Positions 11,354 to 28,875 of a stretch of DNA of 64,000 bases are shown piece after piece. Made by a program: the position numbers and the translations under genes. Source of the stretch: a virus. The stretch lies in the IMG/VR virus record IMGVR_UViG_3300037467_001050, positions 32,001 to 96,000 of that record. One strand, given 5' to 3'. Position 1 is the first letter of the stretch. Each line of letters begins with the position of its first letter. Below the pieces are notes generated by a model that saw only the letters and a program-made list of their open reading frames with translations, was not told the DNA's origin and did no database searches.

Positions 11354-12892
11354 ATGGCTCAAACTGCAAATCCCGGCCTGTTCTCGGCTGCCTCCGCCTC
11401 GATGTCGGCACGGCGCGCGCTGATGCGCGCGGTCTACGGCGGCACAGAGACCCTGCGCGCCGCACGGGAAACCTACCTGCCGCGCTACGAGAACGAGAGC
11501 CCGACCCGCTACGAGACCCGGCTCGCCGCTGCCACGTCGCTGAACAAGCTCAGGGAGGCCGTCGACGCGGCTTCCGCGAAGCCGTTCAAGACGATGATCA
11601 AGTTGATCAACAACACCGACGCCGATCTCGATCAGTGGGTCCGTGACATCGATCTGACCGGCAACCATCTGCACATCTTCGCCCACCAGCACTTCAACGA
11701 CTCGCTGCTGATGGGGCAGGGGCACATCCTGGTGGATCACCCGACCACCTCGAACATGCCGAACCTCGGCGCTCAGCTCGCCTCAGGCGTTCGGCCGTTC
11801 ATGAAGTACATCCGCGACGACGACCTGCGCGCGGCCTACAGCGAGAACGTCGGCGGCGACATCCAGGTGACGCACGTCCGCATCTTCTCGACCCGCGTGG
11901 AGCGCGAGCCCGGCACCTTCAAGGAGAAGGTCTGGAACCAGATCTACGTGATCGAGAAGGAGGTCGGCGCCAACGCGGGCGTCGTGCAGGTCTGGGAGCA
12001 GGACGCGCAGGCCGGCGGCGACAGCTGGGATCTCATCTCCGAGAGCCCGCTCACCATGCCGGAAGTGCCGTTCGTGACGCTCTACGCGGGCGAGAAGGAG
12101 GGCGACTTCATCACCCGCCCGATCTTCCTCGACTTGGCGCACAAACAGGTGGAGCACTACCAGAGCTCGGCCGACCAGCGCTCGATCCTGTCCGCGGCGC
12201 GCTTCCCCATGCTCGCCGCCTCCGGCATTGAGTTCGACGAGGAGGAGATCTCGAAGTTCACGGTCGGCCCCTACAAGGCGCTGTTCTCCCCCGATCCGCA
12301 GGGCCGCTACTACTACGTCGAGCCGGCCGGACGGGCGATCAAGTCTGGCGCGGACGACCTCGCCGCCATGGAAATCCAGATGGACATGATGTCCCTCAAT
12401 CCCGTGGTCGGCACGCACCGGCAGTACGTGCCCGCCAACGAGCGCGACATCGCCGAGACGCGGGTGCATTCGGTGGTCCACGATCTGGCGCTGTCCGAGA
12501 AGGACGCGCTGGAGCGCGCGATCGGCTTCATGGGCACCTGGGTCAACCGGGACTTCTCGAACGTGGGCGTCGGCCTCAACTCCGACTTCACGAACACGAA
12601 GGACAAGATGATCCAGATGGGCGTCTTGTTGAACGCCTTCACCTCGAAGGCGATCTCGCTCGAGACCTTCCTGGAGCAGGCGCGCCGCCTCGATCTCGTG
12701 GACGACGAGTTCGACGTGAACGCCGAGGTCCAGCGGCTGGCCGCCGCCAACGCGGCGCTCGCGGACGAGGAGGATCCCAACGTCGACAACACCGGCCCGG
12801 TCGCCGGCTCGGCCTCCGACCCGGTACGTGCTTCGACCACGGCCCCGGTGGACTTCCCGAACGGCCGGACCCGCCCTAGATCTCAGATCTGA
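11354..12892 (+). CDS. portal protein (DUF4055-like)
   Basis: Follows terL; 512 aa; YLPRYENE...RYETRL pattern. Confidence 0.85.
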   Translation: MAQTANPGLFSAASASMSARRALMRAVYGGTETLRAARETYLPRYENESPTRYETRLAAATSLNKLREAVDAASAKPFKTMIKLINNTDADLDQWVRDIDLTGNHLHIFAHQHFNDSLLMGQGHILVDHPTTSNMPNLGAQLASGVRPFMKYIRDDDLRAAYSENVGGDIQVTHVRIFSTRVEREPGTFKEKVWNQIYVIEKEVGANAGVVQVWEQDAQAGGDSWDLISESPLTMPEVPFVTLYAGEKEGDFITRPIFLDLAHKQVEHYQSSADQRSILSAARFPMLAASGIEFDEEEISKFTVGPYKALFSPDPQGRYYYVEPAGRAIKSGADDLAAMEIQMDMMSLNPVVGTHRQYVPANERDIAETRVHSVVHDLALSEKDALERAIGFMGTWVNRDFSNVGVGLNSDFTNTKDKMIQMGVLLNAFTSKAISLETFLEQARRLDLVDDEFDVNAEVQRLAAANAALADEEDPNVDNTGPVAGSASDPVRASTTAPVDFPNGRTRPRSQI

Positions 12893-13248: not shown

Positions 13249-13488
13249 ATGTCCGTCGCGACGTCCCTTTCCCGCTGGGAGCTACCGACCTTCGGTGGCG
13301 TGGCGGCCGAGGATGTCCCGGCATGGATCGTCGAGGCGATGCTCCTCGGCGTCCTCACCGTGAACCGCCTCGGCGGGTTCACCCTCGACGATGCCCGCGG
13401 CACGAGCTGCATGGCAGGCGACATCGTGGTCCGACAGCCAGACGGCTCGATCACGTTCGAGAAGCAGGAGCAGGCCATCGCGGCCTGA
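13249..13488 (+). CDS. hypothetical protein
   Basis: 79-aa ORF ending 1 nt before the first tRNA-like gene. Confidence 0.65.
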   Translation: MSVATSLSRWELPTFGGVAAEDVPAWIVEAMLLGVLTVNRLGGFTLDDARGTSCMAGDIVVRQPDGSITFEKQEQAIAA

Positions 13489-13489
13489 T

Positions 13490-13581
13490 TGGAGCGTAGC
13501 TCAGTTGGTTAGAGCGCTGGCTTACCCCCGGTCTAACGGGGACGCCGGAGGCCACAGGTTCGAGCCCTGTCGCACCATCCA
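13490..13581 (+). ncRNA. tRNA-like RNA, Asp-type body with a 15-nt hairpin insertion in the anticodon loop
   Basis: D arm GCTC/GAGC, stem CTGGC/GCCGG, T arm ACAGG-TTCGAGC-CCTGT, TCCA end, 22-nt loop. Confidence 0.8.
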
Positions 13582-13779: not shown

Positions 13780-14349
13780 TTGACCACGTACAGCATTTTC
13801 GATCACGGCTCTTGGGAGTCCTACATCAAGCCCGATAGCTTCGGGTCCATCCGACAGATCGGAACCGGGATCGACTGGTACGACTACCGGCAGAATGCCG
13901 CGAACTTCCACGGTGGCGTTCTTGTCACCCTGATGCAGGATTATGCGAACCCGGACGGCTTCCTGTCGGCGGCGCCAAACACCGATGTGTCGATGGTGTC
14001 CCCCTTCGGACGACTGATCGAGATCTTGGACTACGCTGGCTCCACACCTTCCGGTCCCAACAGCGATCTGGCCAACGCTCAGGTCGTCATCAGCGGCAAT
14101 ACCGCGACGTTCACGAAGCCTTACACCCTGACCTCTCGCACGGTTGTGAACCGCATGACCGACGCTGAGATGTACGCCGCCTACATGGCCGACCAGCTGC
14201 AGCCGCTGCGGTCTCGCCTCACAGGGACCGCCGTGCTGCTGACGAGCTTCACGGCACAGAGCGGGACCTCACAGTTCAGCCTGATCAAGGCGGCCTTCGC
14301 CAACCTGTTCGGTGCAGCTCGCGCCGAGACGCTGACAGCGGCCCCGTAG
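13780..14349 (+). CDS. hypothetical protein inside the RNA island, tail-fibre-assembly-like C-terminus
   Basis: 189 aa, TTG start after GGAG; helical C-terminus resembles 31428 protein by eye. Confidence 0.6.
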   Translation: MTTYSIFDHGSWESYIKPDSFGSIRQIGTGIDWYDYRQNAANFHGGVLVTLMQDYANPDGFLSAAPNTDVSMVSPFGRLIEILDYAGSTPSGPNSDLANAQVVISGNTATFTKPYTLTSRTVVNRMTDAEMYAAYMADQLQPLRSRLTGTAVLLTSFTAQSGTSQFSLIKAAFANLFGAARAETLTAAP

Positions 14350-14464
14350 TCGCCAGACGAGAACGAGATCGGCCGGCCCGCGTGGCCGGCCCACAATCAT
14401 GCTCTACCCCAGAGCGCATTCCCTACGGGCACCAGCCCTGAAAAACGTTGACGCCCCAGGTTAG

Positions 14465-14642
14465 GCCTACCACCCCCTTCGAGGGGGAACTCGAGCCCTC
14501 GTATGCGGCTCGAGTGGCGGTACTATGGTCGGATTAAGTAGGCGGGGAATTGCGAGGCAAGGAAGGTGGCGAGAGCCCCGGGTTCCGGTGCGAAAGCACG
14601 ACTGGACCGGCCAGACCGACGGGTCGCAAATGGGTGCCAATT
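14465..14642 (+). ncRNA. candidate structured ncRNA with two multibranch domains
   Basis: Several 4-8 bp stems, GAGA and GAAA tetraloops, TTGACG upstream at 14448. Confidence 0.6.
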
Positions 14643-14649
14643 CGAGATC

Positions 14650-14738
14650 GACGACGTGGTGGCTGAGAGGCTGAAGGCACCACAGAAATGGGGCACGGCC
14701 TGCGGGTCGTCGGGGGTTCAAATCCCTCCCACGTCGTC
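14650..14738 (+). ncRNA. type II tRNA-like RNA with truncated anticodon arm, 10-bp acceptor helix and no adjacent CCA
   Basis: GACGACGTGG/CCACGTCGTC; D arm; variable arm ACGGCC/GGTCGT; T arm GGGGG-TTCAAAT-CCCTC. Confidence 0.7.
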
Positions 14739-14747
14739 GTTTCCATG

Positions 14748-14824
14748 CCCGGTGTAGCTCAGTCTGGTAGAGCATGTGGTTCATGCCCACGGAGCCGCTG
14801 GTTCAAATCCAGCCACCGGCACCA
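14748..14824 (+). tRNA. tRNA(CAT), atypical (C1-C72 mismatch, G37)
   Basis: Cloverleaf, TGTGG-TT CAT GC-CCACG, ACCA end; identity (Met, fMet or Ile2) unresolved. Confidence 0.8.
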
Positions 14825-14941: not shown

Positions 14942-15051
14942 GGGAGGGCATGAGGGCGGAGAGCCCCATCGGGCGCGTCGAGCTGAGCGTGCTCAGCTTC
15001 ACCGGCCCGATGCCTTTTGGCTTGGCGGTGAAAATCCAGCCCCTCCCACCA
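14942..15051 (+). ncRNA. 110-nt tRNA-like RNA with a long extended central arm
   Basis: GGGAGGG/CCCTCCC plus ACCA; GGGC/GCCC; ATCGGGC/GCCCGAT capped by AGCTGAG-CGTG-CTCAGCT; GGTGAAAATCC T-loop-like end. Confidence 0.6.
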
Positions 15052-15387: not shown

Positions 15388-15578
15388 GGCTCATTCAATC
15401 CCCATCGCGCTCCCGGCTCATCCCCGGTTGAGCGCGATCGCGACGGCCCCAGCCTGCAGCATCCCCGGCACAAGACGGGCAGGGATACCAAAGAGCGCGC
15501 CCCCGCACCTCGCGCCGCCGTCCATCGATCGCGAACCGGCTCCAAGACCGCGTCGCGTCGGCCCATAGGCCGCCACTG

Positions 15579-15608
15579 AGCCCCGGCTTCGCGCCGGGGC
15601 TTTTTTCT
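15579..15608 (+). terminator. intrinsic terminator before the scaffold gene
   Basis: AGCCCCGGC/GCCGGGGCT followed by a T run. Confidence 0.8.
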
Positions 15609-15626: not shown

Positions 15627-16559
15627 ATGCCTGATCGTATTTCCGGGATGGAAATGGCACTTCACGCAATTGTCACCGACATCAATACTGTTCCCGAAGC
15701 ACTCCGCACCGAATACACCGAGAAGGACGGGAAGTTCTTCCTCAATGTAGAGCCGGTCGACGGGTTCAAGCTCGAGAACGTGGATGGGCTCGTCAACGCC
15801 CTGAGCGCCGAGCGCACCCTCAAGGACCGAGCCGAAGCTGCTCTCAAGCAGTTCAAGGACATCGATCCGAAGACCGCGCGCTCCGCCATCGAGGCGATCA
15901 CCGCCTACGGTGACCTCACCCCGCAGCAGGTCCAGGCCCTCCAAGAGGAGGTCGCCAATCTGCGCGCCATCGACCCGACCAAGGAAGCCGGCAAGCTCGC
16001 CGAGGCCCAGGTCAGCGCTGCGGTCGCCGCCGCCAAGGCTGAAGCCGAGCGCGTGTTCGGCACCGAGAAGACCACGCTCGCAGAGCAGCTCAACGGCCTC
16101 ACGGCGCTCAACGAGGGCCTGAAGGGTCAGCTCAAGGATCTGCTCGTCGGCAATCAGGTGAAGGCGGAAATCGCCCGCCTGAAGGTCGTGCCCGGCCTCG
16201 AGCCGGCCGCCGAGATGCTCGCCTCCCAGTCGATCCGCACGGTCGAGAAGGACAACGCCTTCCAGGTCGTGGTCATCGACAAGGACGGCAACCCGCGCAT
16301 GAAGCTCGGCGAGAACAACTCGCTCGTGCCGTTCACGGTCACGGACCTGATGGACGAGCTCAAGAAGACCACCCCCGGCCTCTTCCAGGCGGAAGACAAG
16401 GGCGGTGTTGGCATCCAGCCCGGGCGTCACGCTCCGGGCACCGGGGGCATCTCGAACCCCTGGTCGAAGGAGGCCTGGAACCAGACGGAGCAAGCCAAGC
16501 TCCGGCTCTCGAACCCCACCCTAGCCGCTCAGCTCAAGGCCCAGGCCGGCGTCTCCTGA
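15627..16559 (+). CDS. capsid scaffold protein (start may be 15648 or 15654)
   Basis: Directly before the capsid gene; coiled-coil; NPWSKE...NQTEQ tail. Confidence 0.8.
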   Translation: MPDRISGMEMALHAIVTDINTVPEALRTEYTEKDGKFFLNVEPVDGFKLENVDGLVNALSAERTLKDRAEAALKQFKDIDPKTARSAIEAITAYGDLTPQQVQALQEEVANLRAIDPTKEAGKLAEAQVSAAVAAAKAEAERVFGTEKTTLAEQLNGLTALNEGLKGQLKDLLVGNQVKAEIARLKVVPGLEPAAEMLASQSIRTVEKDNAFQVVVIDKDGNPRMKLGENNSLVPFTVTDLMDELKKTTPGLFQAEDKGGVGIQPGRHAPGTGGISNPWSKEAWNQTEQAKLRLSNPTLAAQLKAQAGVS

Positions 16560-16621
16560 TGCCGGCATGACCCTGGCTCGTGCCGGGACGAGGGTGAACC
16601 TCAACAAGAAGAAGAAAACGA

Positions 16622-17608
16622 ATGGCTATTGAGATCACCCAGCTCAAGGACATGATCGTCCCGGAGGAGTGGAACTCCTACATCGAGCTGACCACGACCC
16701 AGAAGAGCGAACTGTTCACCTCGGGCATCGTCCAGGATCTGTCGGCGGAAGTCGGCAATCAGCTGGAAGGCCCGCTGGTCCACATGCCCTACTTCGACGA
16801 CCTCGACAGTGACGACGATCACGAAGAGCAGCAGCTCGACGACGAGGACGACATCGTGGTGGACGGCATCACCACGGGCATGGACGTCGCGGTCAAGACC
16901 GCGCGCGCCAAGTCCTTCGGTTCGACCGACCTCGCCGCCGACCTCTCGGGCGCCGACCCGATCGCCGCGATCCAGAACAAGTTCGCTGGCTGGTGGGCCC
17001 GTCGGTACCAGACCGCTCTGCTCTCCGTGCTCGAGGGCGCGATGGGTTCGGTCGGTATGGAGTCCAACGTGCTCGACATCTCCGGCCTGACCGGCGATGC
17101 CGCGAAGTTCGCGCCTGTCCCCTTCGTCGAGGCCGCGTTCCTCCTGGGTGACGCCGCCGGTGGCCTGACCGCCCTGGCCGTCCACAGCCAGACGCTGAAG
17201 TCGATGGTCCTGGCCGACATGATCACGGTCGTGAAGGACTCGACCACGAACCTCGACATCCCGACGTACATGGGCAAGCGCATCATCGTCGACGACTCCA
17301 TGCCGGTCACCGGCACGGGCGTGGACCGCGTCTACACCAGCTACCTGTTCGGGCCGGGCGCCATCGGCTACGCCACCAAGCCGCTGAAGGTGCCGGTCGA
17401 GGTGGGCCGCAACGCCCTCAAGACCATGGGTCAGGACTACGTCGTCAACAGGAAGCAGTGGGTGCTCCACCCGCGCGGCATCGCCTGGAAGGGCAATGCG
17501 GTGAAGAAGTCCGGTCCGGTCAACGCCGAGCTCAAGAACCCGGCCAACTGGAACCGCGTGTACGACCACAAGCTGATCCGGCTCGTGGCGTTCAAGCACA
17601 AGAACTAA
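16622..17608 (+). CDS. major capsid protein
   Basis: 328 aa after scaffold, highly biased codons, followed by a terminator. Confidence 0.88.
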   Translation: MAIEITQLKDMIVPEEWNSYIELTTTQKSELFTSGIVQDLSAEVGNQLEGPLVHMPYFDDLDSDDDHEEQQLDDEDDIVVDGITTGMDVAVKTARAKSFGSTDLAADLSGADPIAAIQNKFAGWWARRYQTALLSVLEGAMGSVGMESNVLDISGLTGDAAKFAPVPFVEAAFLLGDAAGGLTALAVHSQTLKSMVLADMITVVKDSTTNLDIPTYMGKRIIVDDSMPVTGTGVDRVYTSYLFGPGAIGYATKPLKVPVEVGRNALKTMGQDYVVNRKQWVLHPRGIAWKGNAVKKSGPVNAELKNPANWNRVYDHKLIRLVAFKHKN

Positions 17609-27763: not shown

Positions 27764-28875
27764 TGGGCGCGATCGGCTTTCTCCCGGCCACCGCGCCGCT
27801 CTCGGCCGAGCAGCTCGCGGTCGGCGACAAGCGCTTCGATCGGCTCGACGGGGGCAATCGCAGCCTGCACGTCTTCCCAAACGCGCTCATCAACTCGAGC
27901 TTCGACCATTGGCAGCGCGGCAACGGGCCGTTTGCTTTGACTGGCGGTGGCAGCATTTACGGACCGGACAGGTGGCGCCTGTTTAACGTCGGACCGAACG
28001 GTTCCGTGACGATCACGCGCCAGCCGCTTTCATTCGGCGACTGGCCGTCTCAGAGCCGCCTATCCGTGATCTTCGGTGGCTCGGGGAACACGGCGACGGC
28101 TGATGGGATCGTATTTCAGCAACCGATCGAGGGCGTGGACACCTTCGCCGGCAAGCGCGTGGTTGTTCGCGGCGGGATCCGTTTAGTCTCCGGCGCGGCG
28201 GGAAGCAAAGTCTCTGTTGAACTGGTGCAGAATTTCGGCACCGGAGGCTCCGCTTCGGTGTATACCGACGCTGGTCGTGTCGCTCTTAGTGGCGTGTTAA
28301 CGCCATTTGCTGCGATTGTTGATGTGCCGTCGATGGCCGGAAAGGTCATCGGCTCGGCCGGAGATTTCCTGGGCCTGCAATTCTGGTGTTCTTCCGGATC
28401 TGACTATGCTGCCCGCACCGGAAATCTCGGTTTTCAGGCAATCACCGTTCAGCTCGTCGACGTCGAGGTGAAGGAGGTCAAACCCGGCTACGGCGACCAG
28501 TATCCGGGGTTTGAGCGAGTTCCACGTGAGACGGACTACGATCGCTGCCTGAGGTTCTATGAGCAATCGTGGCTCACTGAAGTTGATATCGTGGGACTGA
28601 ATACTGCGGTAGGATTTGGTACGGTTCACCCGACCGGAGCTTGTCGTATCGCGGTGCGATACAGGAAGCGCAAGCGCATCAACCCTGTACTCGCTATTGC
28701 CGACACTAATCTGATACGCGGAGCCGTCTCCATCTACTACACCAGCAGTAACAGTTGGGTCGGCGGCCAGGGATACTCCCTGCTGTCCGGTTCGGCGGAA
28801 GGCTTTTATTTTGGCCATAACAACCCCAGCTCGATCGAGACGCAGGGCCACTACATCGCAAGCGCGGATTACTAA
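27763..28875 (+). CDS. receptor-binding/tail fibre protein 1
   Basis: NALINSSFDHWQRG ... YDRCLRFY; lower-GC 3' end. Confidence 0.75.
   Translation: MGAIGFLPATAPLSAEQLAVGDKRFDRLDGGNRSLHVFPNALINSSFDHWQRGNGPFALTGGGSIYGPDRWRLFNVGPNGSVTITRQPLSFGDWPSQSRLSVIFGGSGNTATADGIVFQQPIEGVDTFAGKRVVVRGGIRLVSGAAGSKVSVELVQNFGTGGSASVYTDAGRVALSGVLTPFAAIVDVPSMAGKVIGSAGDFLGLQFWCSSGSDYAARTGNLGFQAITVQLVDVEVKEVKPGYGDQYPGFERVPRETDYDRCLRFYEQSWLTEVDIVGLNTAVGFGTVHPTGACRIAVRYRKRKRINPVLAIADTNLIRGAVSIYYTSSNSWVGGQGYSLLSGSAEGFYFGHNNPSSIETQGHYIASADY

What the first reader, a model, noticed from the sequence alone, without database searches (positions are those of the whole stretch)
13490..13581. tRNA-Asp-like gene with its anticodon pushed onto an extra hairpin
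Seen: a textbook tRNA body, but the 7-nt anticodon loop is 22 nt: TTAC-CCCCG-GTCTAA-CGGGG-AC. The D, anticodon-stem and T regions resemble alphaproteobacterial tRNA-Asp as I recall it (stem CCGGC/GCCGG, loop ending AC), and GTC survives in the new apical loop, overlapping T-CTA-A (amber anticodon context). Acceptor is T1-A72 with an A-A mismatch and U73. Inference: an elongated-arm mimic or a short intron; removing 15 nt can only give ACC, ACG, AGG or GGG anticodons, not GTC.
Basis: partly seen in the sequence, partly recalled or inferred. Interest (0 to 1): 0.8.

Follow-up and report, generated by a model that had tools for sequence, protein, structure and literature searches.

The report
Phage tRNA-Asp look-alike, sealed anticodon arm
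A soil phage carries a gene that is clearly built from an aspartate tRNA but has a 15-base hairpin where the anticodon loop should be, so it most likely cannot read codons and serves as a tRNA look-alike; only one copy is known, so this stays a reasoned guess.

Summary
At 13490-13581 (+) there is a 92-nt tRNA gene (Rfam tRNA, 52 bits) whose anticodon loop is 22 nt: UUAC, a 5-bp G-C helix capped by GUCUAA, then AC. With the other arms fixed, this extended arm is the best fold (-32.3 kcal/mol). ARAGORN's 'tRNA-Val(tac)' class-II fold gives -23.4. The body derives from alphaproteobacterial tRNA-Asp: the only full-length BLAST hits are tRNA-Asp(GTC). The acceptor stem is remodelled (two compensated pair swaps, one A-A mismatch, G73 to U73).

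The intron reading is not supported. There is no bulge-helix-bulge motif and no splicing endonuclease in the phage, and a 15-nt excision gives only Pro, Arg or Gly anticodons that do not fit the body. The phage does encode an RtcB ligase, far from the island.

The gene lies in a phage-specific RNA island between the portal and scaffold genes. A tRNA-Ser-derived neighbour lacks exactly three loop bases, which leaves a GAAA cap, and a 110-nt tRNA-shaped RNA has a long arm.

My best reading (about 0.5) is a non-decoding tRNA mimic. The rivals are a disabled pseudogene and an unknown mini-intron.

No homologue turned up in viral, metagenome or genome scans, so conservation is untested. This scan has noted similar hairpin-bearing phage tRNA genes on other DNA.

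The parts
13490..13581 (+). Whole 92-nt tRNA-Asp-derived gene, including U73 (13578) and encoded CCA (13579-13581)
   Evidence: Rfam RF00005 52 bits; ARAGORN 92-nt call; alignment A1 to alphaproteobacterial tRNA-Asp
13490..13496 (+). Acceptor stem 5' strand TGGAGCG. It pairs with 13571-13577 (CGCACCA). There is an A4-A69 mismatch, and pairs 1-72 and 2-71 are swapped compensatorily relative to tRNA-Asp
13499..13515 (+). D arm GCTC-AGTTGGTTA-GAGC, identical to the Sphingomonas and Azospirillum tRNA-Asp genes; the other three differ at one or two bases
   Evidence: alignment A1
13517..13521 (+). Anticodon stem 5' strand CTGGC. It pairs with 13544-13548 (GCCGG). One C to T change gives a U-G pair
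13522..13525 (+). 5' side of the internal loop, TTAC. TT corresponds to positions 32-33 of the Asp loop
13526..13541 (+). Inserted hairpin CCCCG-GTCTAA-CGGGG: a 5-bp G-C helix with a 6-nt apical loop at 13531-13536 that holds GTC. It occurs only once in the genome
13542..13543 (+). 3' side of the internal loop, AC. This corresponds to A37 C38 of the tRNA-Asp loop
   Evidence: alignment A1
13549..13570 (+). Variable loop AGGCC and T arm ACAGG-TTCGAGC-CCTGT. Pair 51-63 is swapped compensatorily (G-C to A-U) relative to tRNA-Asp
13249..13488 (+). Upstream 79-aa ORF whose stop codon ends 1 nt before the RNA gene. This implies co-transcription, with RNase P-type cleavage releasing the RNA
   Evidence: no Pfam match
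14652..14738 (+). Context: a tRNA-Ser-derived gene in the same island whose anticodon loop lacks exactly 3 nt (C32 U33 C34), which leaves a GAAA tetraloop
   Evidence: Rfam 36.7 bits; alignment A2 to Rhizobium tRNA-Ser(CGA)
14942..15051 (+). Context: a 110-nt tRNA-shaped RNA with a 7-bp acceptor, ACCA, and a long two-part 'anticodon' arm
   Evidence: z = -2.8
15578..15602 (+). Intrinsic terminator that closes the transcription unit holding the RNA island

Best explanation
This is a phage gene for a non-decoding tRNA look-alike, derived from an alphaproteobacterial-type tRNA-Asp.

Shown:
- The acceptor, D and T arms and all the elbow-forming bases are kept.
- The three anticodon bases have been replaced by an 18-nt segment. 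That segment adds a 5-bp G-C helix and a 6-nt cap on top of the old anticodon stem, with the old loop bases 32-33 and 37-38 left as an internal loop.
- The Asp discriminator G73 has become U.

Inferred:
- The RNA is transcribed with the late genes. It is cut out by RNase P and 3' trimming like a tRNA, and it is stable, as engineered 'tRNA scaffolds' with a hairpin in this position are.
- The arm is about 20 Angstrom too long and has no 7-nt loop, so the RNA cannot pair with a codon on the ribosome.
- With GUC displaced and G73 lost, AspRS probably does not charge it.

Most likely role (inference, not shown): it binds a protein that recognises the tRNA body, for example as an uncleavable decoy for a host tRNA-targeting nuclease. 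It would act together with the two other anticodon-sealed tRNA-shaped RNAs of the same island.
For: - It is a true tRNA body: Rfam 52 bits.
- Asp origin: all four full-length BLAST hits that I fetched and identified are alphaproteobacterial tRNA-Asp(GTC). The D arm is identical to two of them, the variable loop to one, and the anticodon stem differs by a single base.
- The lineage kept the fold. Relative to tRNA-Asp it has three compensated pair swaps of its own (1-72, 2-71, 51-63), two one-sided changes that keep pairing, and only one broken pair.
- The extended arm is the best fold by 9 kcal/mol over ARAGORN's alternative. It is stable on its own, with z = -2.6. Only about 1.5% of random loops match it.
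- The ancestral loop cannot be turned into this one by a single 15-nt insertion without further substitutions. Deriving it takes either a block replacement or at least two steps (sequence and alignment A1).
- The same island holds a tRNA-Ser body with exactly three loop bases removed to give a GAAA cap, and a 110-nt tRNA-shaped RNA with a long arm. That makes three RNAs altered only in the anticodon arm, beside three ordinary tRNAs.
- The island is absent from nine related phage structural modules.
- The phage carries RtcB, a marker of conflict over tRNA cleavage.
- tRNA scaffolds with a hairpin in place of the anticodon loop are processed and stable in E. coli (PMC3753655).
Against: - There is a single sequence, with no homologue of the insert in viral, metagenome or genome scans. 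The inserted helix therefore has no covariation support, and selection on it is unproven.
- No RNA data exist.
- The acceptor stem has an A-A mismatch.
- No partner protein or target nuclease is identified, and the host is unknown.
- The compensated swaps could all predate the insertion, so they do not prove that the present form is functional.
- RtcB is not linked to the island.
Confidence: 0.5

Rival explanations
1. Disabled pseudogene. A phage tRNA-Asp copy was knocked out by a small replacement or insertion in the anticodon loop that happens to be self-complementary. It has no function and has not yet decayed.
For: - It is a singleton with no conserved homologue.
- The acceptor stem has an A-A mismatch and a non-Asp discriminator.
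- Hairpins of 5 bp or more arise in about 13% of random loops of this composition.
- Phage tRNA clusters are known to contain degenerate copies (general knowledge).
Against: - Every base needed for the L-shape is intact, and three stem pairs are compensated.
- A hairpin this stable is reached by only about 1.5% of random loops.
- Two further RNAs in the same 1.65-kb island are altered only in the anticodon arm, and each is left with a neat capped helix. That pattern is unlikely for independent random decay.
Confidence: 0.25
2. Mini-intron. The hairpin is cut out by an unknown endonuclease, from the host or the phage, and the halves are rejoined, perhaps by the phage RtcB. The product is a 77-nt decoding tRNA with anticodon ACC (Gly), ACG (Arg), or GGG/AGG (Pro).
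For: - The phage encodes an RtcB ligase (98.8 bits).
- Unexplained introns have been reported in Lak phage tRNAs (PMC6784885).
- U73 together with C35 C36 would fit part of the bacterial tRNA-Gly identity set (established knowledge).
- ARAGORN accepts every excised form as a tRNA.
Against: - There is no bulge-helix-bulge motif. The two unpaired stretches face each other as a 4x2 internal loop, rather than being staggered across a 4-bp helix. All 82 enlarged-loop tRNAs that the pattern found elsewhere look like archaeal intron-bearing genes, with the intron pairing onto the anticodon (the 33 genome records are titled archaeal).
- The phage has no tRNA_int_endo, and bacteria are not known to have it.
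- Excision at the canonical 37/38 site leaves C37.
- No excision restores GUC, and the body is Asp-like, not Gly-, Arg- or Pro-like (U20 rather than A20 for Arg; U73 and A72 rather than A73 and G72 for Pro).
- At 10 bp split by an internal loop, the helix is short for RNase III, and RNase III ends (5'-P, 3'-OH) are not RtcB substrates.
- No ATP-dependent RNA ligase was found.
Confidence: 0.15
3. ARAGORN's reading. A class II-like tRNA-Val(UAC) with anticodon stem GCUGG/CCGGU, a 7-nt loop CUUACCC and a 21-nt variable arm.
For: ARAGORN reports this fold with a canonical 7-nt loop and U33.
Against: - It is 9 kcal/mol less stable than the extended-arm fold (-23.4 against -32.3).
- It uses up nucleotide 26, has two G-U pairs in the stem, has C at position 37 and lacks A73, the discriminator ValRS needs.
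- Rfam's model aligns the stem CUGGC/GCCGG instead.
- That stem is the conserved tRNA-Asp stem.
Confidence: 0.03

Closest known systems
Alphaproteobacterial tRNA-Asp(GUC) (Rfam RF00005)
   Same: The D arm is identical to two of the five compared genes and the variable loop AGGCC to one. The anticodon stem differs by one base. A37 C38, the T loop, G10 and the encoded CCA match. Identity outside the acceptor stem and the insert is about 90% (alignment A1).
   Different: The loop is 22 nt instead of 7. GUC is moved to the cap of an extra helix. The discriminator is U73 instead of G73. Acceptor pairs 1-72 and 2-71 are swapped and pair 4-69 is mismatched.
Engineered 'tRNA scaffold' RNAs (Ponchon and Dardel; PMC3753655)
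   Same: A tRNA acceptor, D arm and T arm carry a hairpin in place of the anticodon loop. Such chimeras are recognised by bacterial processing enzymes and accumulate stably. This is what the phage RNA works like in terms of biogenesis.
   Different: The scaffolds are artificial, and their inserts are cargo RNAs of tens to hundreds of bases. Here the insert is natural, only 15 nt net, and its purpose is unknown.
'Enigmatic introns' in Lak megaphage tRNAs (Devoto et al. 2019, PMC6784885)
   Same: These are phage-encoded tRNA genes that are longer than normal because of an insert called in the anticodon region, with no known removal mechanism.
   Different: The Lak cases were called as introns that leave a normal anticodon and isotype. 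They are conserved across genomes and occur in low-GC gut megaphages. In our gene no excision gives an anticodon that fits the body, and no second copy is known.
Archaeal and eukaryal protein-spliced pre-tRNAs (BHB introns)
   Same: They have an enlarged anticodon loop of similar size. The enlarged-loop tRNAs with this stem that the scans found (49 metagenome, 33 genome records) are of this type. An RtcB-type ligase is present in the phage.
   Different: Our gene has no BHB geometry, no splicing endonuclease, and a bacterial-type setting (encoded CCA, a class II tRNA-Tyr next door). The spliced product would be nonsensical for the body.

Membership tests
Canonical tRNA (Rfam RF00005) | Cloverleaf with acceptor, D and T arms and conserved elbow bases | tested here: met
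   52 bits against a gathering score of 29, full model 1-71. U8, A14, G18, G19, A21, T54, T55, C56 and A58 can be read directly in the sequence.
Canonical tRNA (Rfam RF00005) | 7-nt anticodon loop with U33 and a 3-nt anticodon on a 5-bp stem | tested here: not met
   The loop is 22 nt. The model shows a 20-nt insertion where it expects 5 positions. The best fold has an extra 5-bp helix and a 6-nt cap.
tRNA-Asp | Body sequence of tRNA-Asp (D arm, anticodon stem, C38, variable loop, T arm) | tested here: met
   All four full-length BLAST hits that I fetched are alphaproteobacterial tRNA-Asp(GTC). 34 of 37 viral tRNAs with this stem are Asp.
tRNA-Asp | AspRS identity set: G34 U35 C36 in the anticodon loop, and G73 | tested here: not met
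   GUC lies in the cap of the added helix, not at positions 34-36. The discriminator is U. The identity set itself is taken from established knowledge of E. coli AspRS.
Protein-spliced tRNA intron (BHB type) | Two 3-nt bulges on opposite strands, separated by a 4-bp helix | tested here: not met
   The fold shows a 4x2 internal loop followed by an uninterrupted 5-bp helix. It contrasts with the 82 archaeal-type examples.
Protein-spliced tRNA intron (BHB type) | Splicing endonuclease (tRNA_int_endo) available | tested here: not met
   PF01974 is absent from the 122.9-kb phage genome, while the control search finds it only in archaea. The host is unknown, so it was not tested.
Protein-spliced tRNA intron (BHB type) | Excision restores a 7-nt loop with an anticodon that fits the tRNA body | tested here: not met
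   Only GGG, AGG, ACG or ACC are possible, and the body is Asp-like.
Protein-spliced tRNA intron (BHB type) | RtcB-type ligase available | tested here: met
   A 468-aa RtcB, 98.8 bits, at G000 111162-112568 (-). It is not linked to the island.
Group I intron in a tRNA anticodon loop | Self-splicing core of about 200 nt or more | tested here: not met
   The insert is 15 nt, and there is no Rfam intron match.
Bacterial Y RNA (YrlA) tRNA-like module | Rfam YrlA match, and a Ro (TROVE) protein partner | tested here: not met
   There is no YrlA match at this locus. The only weak match (25 bits against 69) spans two neighbouring tRNAs. PF05731 is absent from the phage.
tmRNA | tRNA-like domain with a tag reading frame | tested here: not met
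   ARAGORN in tmRNA mode finds none in the genome.
RNase III-processed hairpin | About one helical turn or more of near-continuous double strand | tested here: inconclusive
   There are 5 + 5 bp, interrupted by a 4x2 internal loop. This looks too short from general knowledge of RNase III substrates, but cleavage cannot be tested here.

The most novel reading that the evidence does not exclude
The gene belongs to a purpose-built set of three anticodon-sealed tRNA mimics: Asp-derived with an extended arm, Ser-derived with a GAAA cap, and a 110-nt long-armed form. The phage would express them with its late genes to soak up or misdirect host proteins that recognise tRNA bodies, most plausibly anticodon-cleaving defence nucleases. 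That would be a counter-defence by uncleavable tRNA decoys, distinct from the known strategies of replacing or repairing cleaved tRNAs.
Probability: 0.25. Interest if true: 0.8.

Novelty: new variant of a known kind. Interest (0 to 1): 0.5.

Why it matters
Phage tRNA genes are now seen as weapons in a conflict over host tRNA-cleaving defences. The known phage answers are nuclease-resistant replacement tRNAs (PMC10264068, PMC11464382) and repair ligases.

A tRNA body kept intact while its anticodon arm is sealed would point to a third answer: a decoy or scaffold RNA that is processed like a tRNA but never decodes.

This case is clean in its anatomy. Its parent, tRNA-Asp, is identifiable base by base. 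It also sits next to two other RNAs altered in the same place, which makes the island a compact test bed.

It is still a single sequence from a soil metagenome with no host, no expression data and no conserved relatives, so its weight is limited until those are found.

Tried and rejected
Searches for homologues (none found):
- Exact 5' half and exact T-arm/acceptor patterns in viral contigs: 0 hits.
- The phage's tRNA-Tyr used as an anchor: 0 hits.
- Enlarged-loop pattern: 0 hits in viral contigs. Only archaeal-type intron-bearing tRNAs in metagenomes and genomes.

Synteny:
- The portal, major head protein and island ORF used as anchors gave nine related structural modules. None has any tRNA.

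Contigs of island relatives:
- The search for homologous proteins found three relatives of the island ORF: P0002, P0003 and P0004.

Sequencing runs:
- No RNA holder was listed.
- Only the probable source run covers the gene.
- Two other soil or rhizosphere runs touch only generic tRNA arms and the island ORF. The 'joints' seen there are ordinary tRNAs of other organisms.

Other checks:
- The genome search 'relatives' is not available for a virus record.
- Absent from the phage: tRNA_int_endo, TROVE, CCA-adding enzyme, ATP-dependent RNA ligase, class IIb aaRS and TGT.
- Other copies of the hairpin in the genome: none.
- An antisense partner for the apical loop: none of 7 nt or more. The only 6-nt match in the island is in the RNA's own D loop.
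- Amber recoding: TAG is used as a normal stop.

Rejected readings:
- ARAGORN's class II Val(UAC) fold, on energy and identity grounds.
- YrlA, tmRNA and group I intron.

Literature:
- Searches found no description of a phage tRNA with an extended anticodon arm.

Full report
**What is there.** The window is bases 32001-96000 of a complete 122,894-bp, 64.6% G+C virus record from IMG/VR. At 13490-13581 (+), Rfam's tRNA model matches end to end at 52 bits, with a 20-nt insertion where the model expects five loop positions. ARAGORN calls a 92-nt gene at the same coordinates.

The sequence reads as follows:
- acceptor TGGAGCG/CGCACCA, with an A4-A69 mismatch
- D arm GCTC-AGTTGGTTA-GAGC
- anticodon stem CTGGC/GCCGG
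- a 22-nt loop TTAC-CCCCG-GTCTAA-CGGGG-AC
- variable loop AGGCC
- T arm ACAGG-TTCGAGC-CCTGT
- U73 and an encoded CCA

The probable source run covers the stretch at about 43x without a single difference, so the insert is not an assembly error.

**Which fold.** ARAGORN's label 'tRNA-Val(tac)' comes from a different cloverleaf. It shifts the anticodon stem by one register (GCUGG/CCGGU), uses up nucleotide 26, and treats the rest as a 21-nt variable arm. That fold scores -23.4 kcal/mol. The cloverleaf with the extended anticodon arm scores -32.3, and it is the minimum-energy structure once the acceptor, D and T arms are fixed.

The arm alone folds into stem / 4x2 internal loop / 5-bp helix / 6-nt cap. 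It takes 81% of the ensemble at -17.7 kcal/mol, z = -2.6, with 3 of 200 shuffles as good. In a simulation, 1.5% of random 22-nt loops of the genome's composition were as stable, and 0.6% also had GUC in the apical loop. The hairpin is therefore more than chance. For one sequence, though, it is only moderately so.

**Where the body comes from.** A pattern taken from the anticodon stem found 37 viral tRNAs. All had normal 7-nt loops, and 34 were tRNA-Asp(GTC). That pattern was chosen from the sequence itself, so I also ran a plain BLAST of the gene against plasmids and chromids. The only hits that span the whole gene are alphaproteobacterial, and the four I fetched are all tRNA-Asp(GTC): Sphingomonas, Methylobacterium, Azospirillum and Rhizobium.

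In the alignment (A1):
- The D arm matches two of these genes exactly, the variable loop matches one, and A37 C38 and the T loop match as well.
- The anticodon stem differs by one base, giving a U-G pair.
- The 15-nt gap falls exactly in the loop.
- The acceptor stem has been rebuilt: 1-72 G-C to U-A, 2-71 C-G to G-C, 4-69 to A-A, and G73 to U73.

Counting pairs, the phage gene has three compensated swaps of its own (1-72, 2-71, 51-63), two one-sided changes that keep pairing, and one broken pair. The lineage was under selection to keep a tRNA fold. Whether that still held after the insert arose cannot be told.

**How the loop relates to the Asp loop.** All seven ancestral loop letters (yU-GUC-AC) are present in order: UU-[ACCCCCG]-GUC-[UAACGGGG]-AC. 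A single contiguous 15-nt insertion cannot produce this without two more substitutions. Deriving it needs either a block replacement of GUC by 18 nt or at least two steps. This is read directly from the sequence and from A1.

**Intron?** I consider it unlikely, for these reasons:
- The enlarged-loop pattern (12-30 nt between the same stem halves) found nothing in viral contigs. It found 49 metagenome and 33 genome records. All 33 genome records are titled as archaeal, and every hit looks like an archaeal intron-bearing tRNA (Arg, Thr, Ala and others) whose intron pairs back onto the anticodon, as a bulge-helix-bulge motif requires.
- Our RNA has a 4x2 internal loop and an uninterrupted helix, not staggered 3-nt bulges.
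- The phage has no splicing endonuclease.
- Removing any 15 contiguous bases gives only GGG or AGG (Pro), ACG (Arg) or ACC (Gly), none of which fits an Asp body. Excision at the canonical 37/38 site leaves C37.
- The phage does encode RtcB (98.8 bits). It lies 65 kb away, among ribonucleotide reductase, YqaJ exonuclease, a DnaQ-like exonuclease, SSB and primase-helicase genes.
- No ATP-dependent RNA ligase, CCA-adding enzyme, TGT, class IIb synthetase or Ro protein is present.

U73 with C35 C36 would match part of the bacterial tRNA-Gly identity set (established knowledge). For that reason I keep a mini-intron reading at 0.15.

**Context.** The gene starts 1 nt after the stop codon of a 79-aa ORF. 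It lies in a 1.65-kb RNA island between the portal gene (11354-12892) and the scaffold and major head genes (15627-17608). A strong terminator at 15578-15602 closes the unit.

The island holds ordinary tRNA-Trp and tRNA-Tyr and a CAU tRNA. It also holds two more odd RNAs:
- The gene at 14652-14738 aligns to Rhizobium tRNA-Ser(CGA) with exactly C32 U33 C34 missing. That turns the loop into a GAAA tetraloop, while G73 and the long variable arm are kept.
- The RNA at 14942-15051 has a 7-bp acceptor, ACCA and a long two-part arm, with z = -2.8.

Nine related phage structural modules have no tRNA at all, so the island is a lineage-specific acquisition. Three RNAs are changed only in the anticodon arm, and each is left with a tidy capped helix. 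I take that as the best argument against simple decay.

**Most likely mechanism.**

Shown: a tRNA-Asp body with an extended, capped anticodon arm and a non-Asp discriminator.

Inferred:
- It is transcribed with the late genes and matured like a tRNA. Engineered tRNA scaffolds with a hairpin in this position are precisely processed and stable in E. coli (PMC3753655).
- It cannot decode, because the arm is about seven stacked layers (roughly 20 Angstrom) too long and lacks a 7-nt loop.
- AspRS probably does not charge it, because both main determinants (the anticodon and G73) are displaced or lost.

A role as a protein-binding mimic follows by elimination. It also fits the known conflict over tRNA cleavage, in which phages answer host tRNases with resistant tRNAs (PMC10264068, PMC11464382) or with repair. 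An uncleavable decoy is my preferred specific guess. It is a guess.

**Limits.**
- No homologue of this RNA was found by any route.
- No RNA run holds it.
- The inserted helix therefore has no covariation support.

**Relation to earlier notes of this scan.** Other agents have reported phage tRNA-shaped genes with hairpins in the anticodon loop on other DNA. Some of those had compensatory support, and they were read variously as mimics or mini-introns. I did not test those notes. They gave me the leads to the Lak phage paper and the tRNA-scaffold paper, both of which I read.

**Verdict.** The Asp origin and the extended arm are supported, and the intron and suppressor ideas are not.
- non-decoding tRNA mimic: 0.5
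- disabled pseudogene: 0.25
- unknown mini-intron: 0.15
- ARAGORN's fold: 0.03

Interest is moderate (0.5). The anatomy is clear and the island context is suggestive, but the gene is a singleton with no expression or conservation data.

Noticed in passing
window 14652-14738 (+): A tRNA-Ser-derived gene (Rfam 36.7 bits). Against Rhizobium tRNA-Ser(CGA) it lacks exactly C32 U33 C34, so the anticodon stem is capped by a GAAA tetraloop. G73 and the long variable arm are kept. SerRS does not read the anticodon (established knowledge), so the RNA might still be charged.
   Followed up: partly
window 14942-15051 (+): A 110-nt RNA that folds like a tRNA: a 7-bp acceptor followed by ACCA, a D-like hairpin, a long two-part 'anticodon' arm, a mini variable arm and an imperfect T arm. 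z = -2.8, and there is no Rfam match. It ends 5 nt before tRNA-Tyr.
   Followed up: partly
G000 27794-28804 (-), that is 3.2 kb before the window (L140:1794-2804): A 336-aa phage protein with a ProQ/FinO RNA-binding domain (82.8 bits) and a partial ribosomal bL12 C-terminal domain (36 bits, above the cut-off). It is a possible partner for structured phage RNAs. No link to the island is shown.
   Followed up: partly
G000 111162-112568 (-), outside the window (L127:8162-9568): A phage RtcB RNA ligase (98.8 bits), embedded among class II ribonucleotide reductase, YqaJ exonuclease, a DnaQ-like exonuclease, SSB and primase-helicase genes.
   Followed up: partly
window 13532-13537 and 13508-13513: The apical loop's UCUAAC is the exact complement of GUUAGA in the same RNA's D loop and stem. 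GTTAGA occurs only twice on the plus strand of the whole genome. I estimate the chance of such a 6-nt match at about 8%. The two sites are far apart in an L-shaped tRNA, so the meaning is unclear.
   Followed up: partly
window 14748-14824 (+): A CAU-anticodon tRNA (Rfam 59.9 bits) with a C1-C72 mismatch at the top of the acceptor stem and G37 next to the anticodon. It is not initiator-like in its anticodon stem. It could be a Met or an Ile2-type tRNA.
   Followed up: no
window 16434-16531 (-): ARAGORN calls a 98-nt 'tRNA-Ala(ggc)' on the minus strand inside the scaffold protein gene. Rfam gives no support, so it is probably a false positive.
   Followed up: partly
window 14350-14651 (+): A 302-nt non-coding spacer between the island ORF and the Ser-like gene. 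It is G+C-rich, but it does not fold better than shuffles (z = -0.7), and it has no Rfam match.
   Followed up: partly
window 13780-14349 (+): A 189-aa ORF that sits among the tRNA genes. It has no Pfam or PHROG match, and only three relatives among 5.8 billion proteins (62%, 56% and 77% identity), all from metagenomes.
   Followed up: partly
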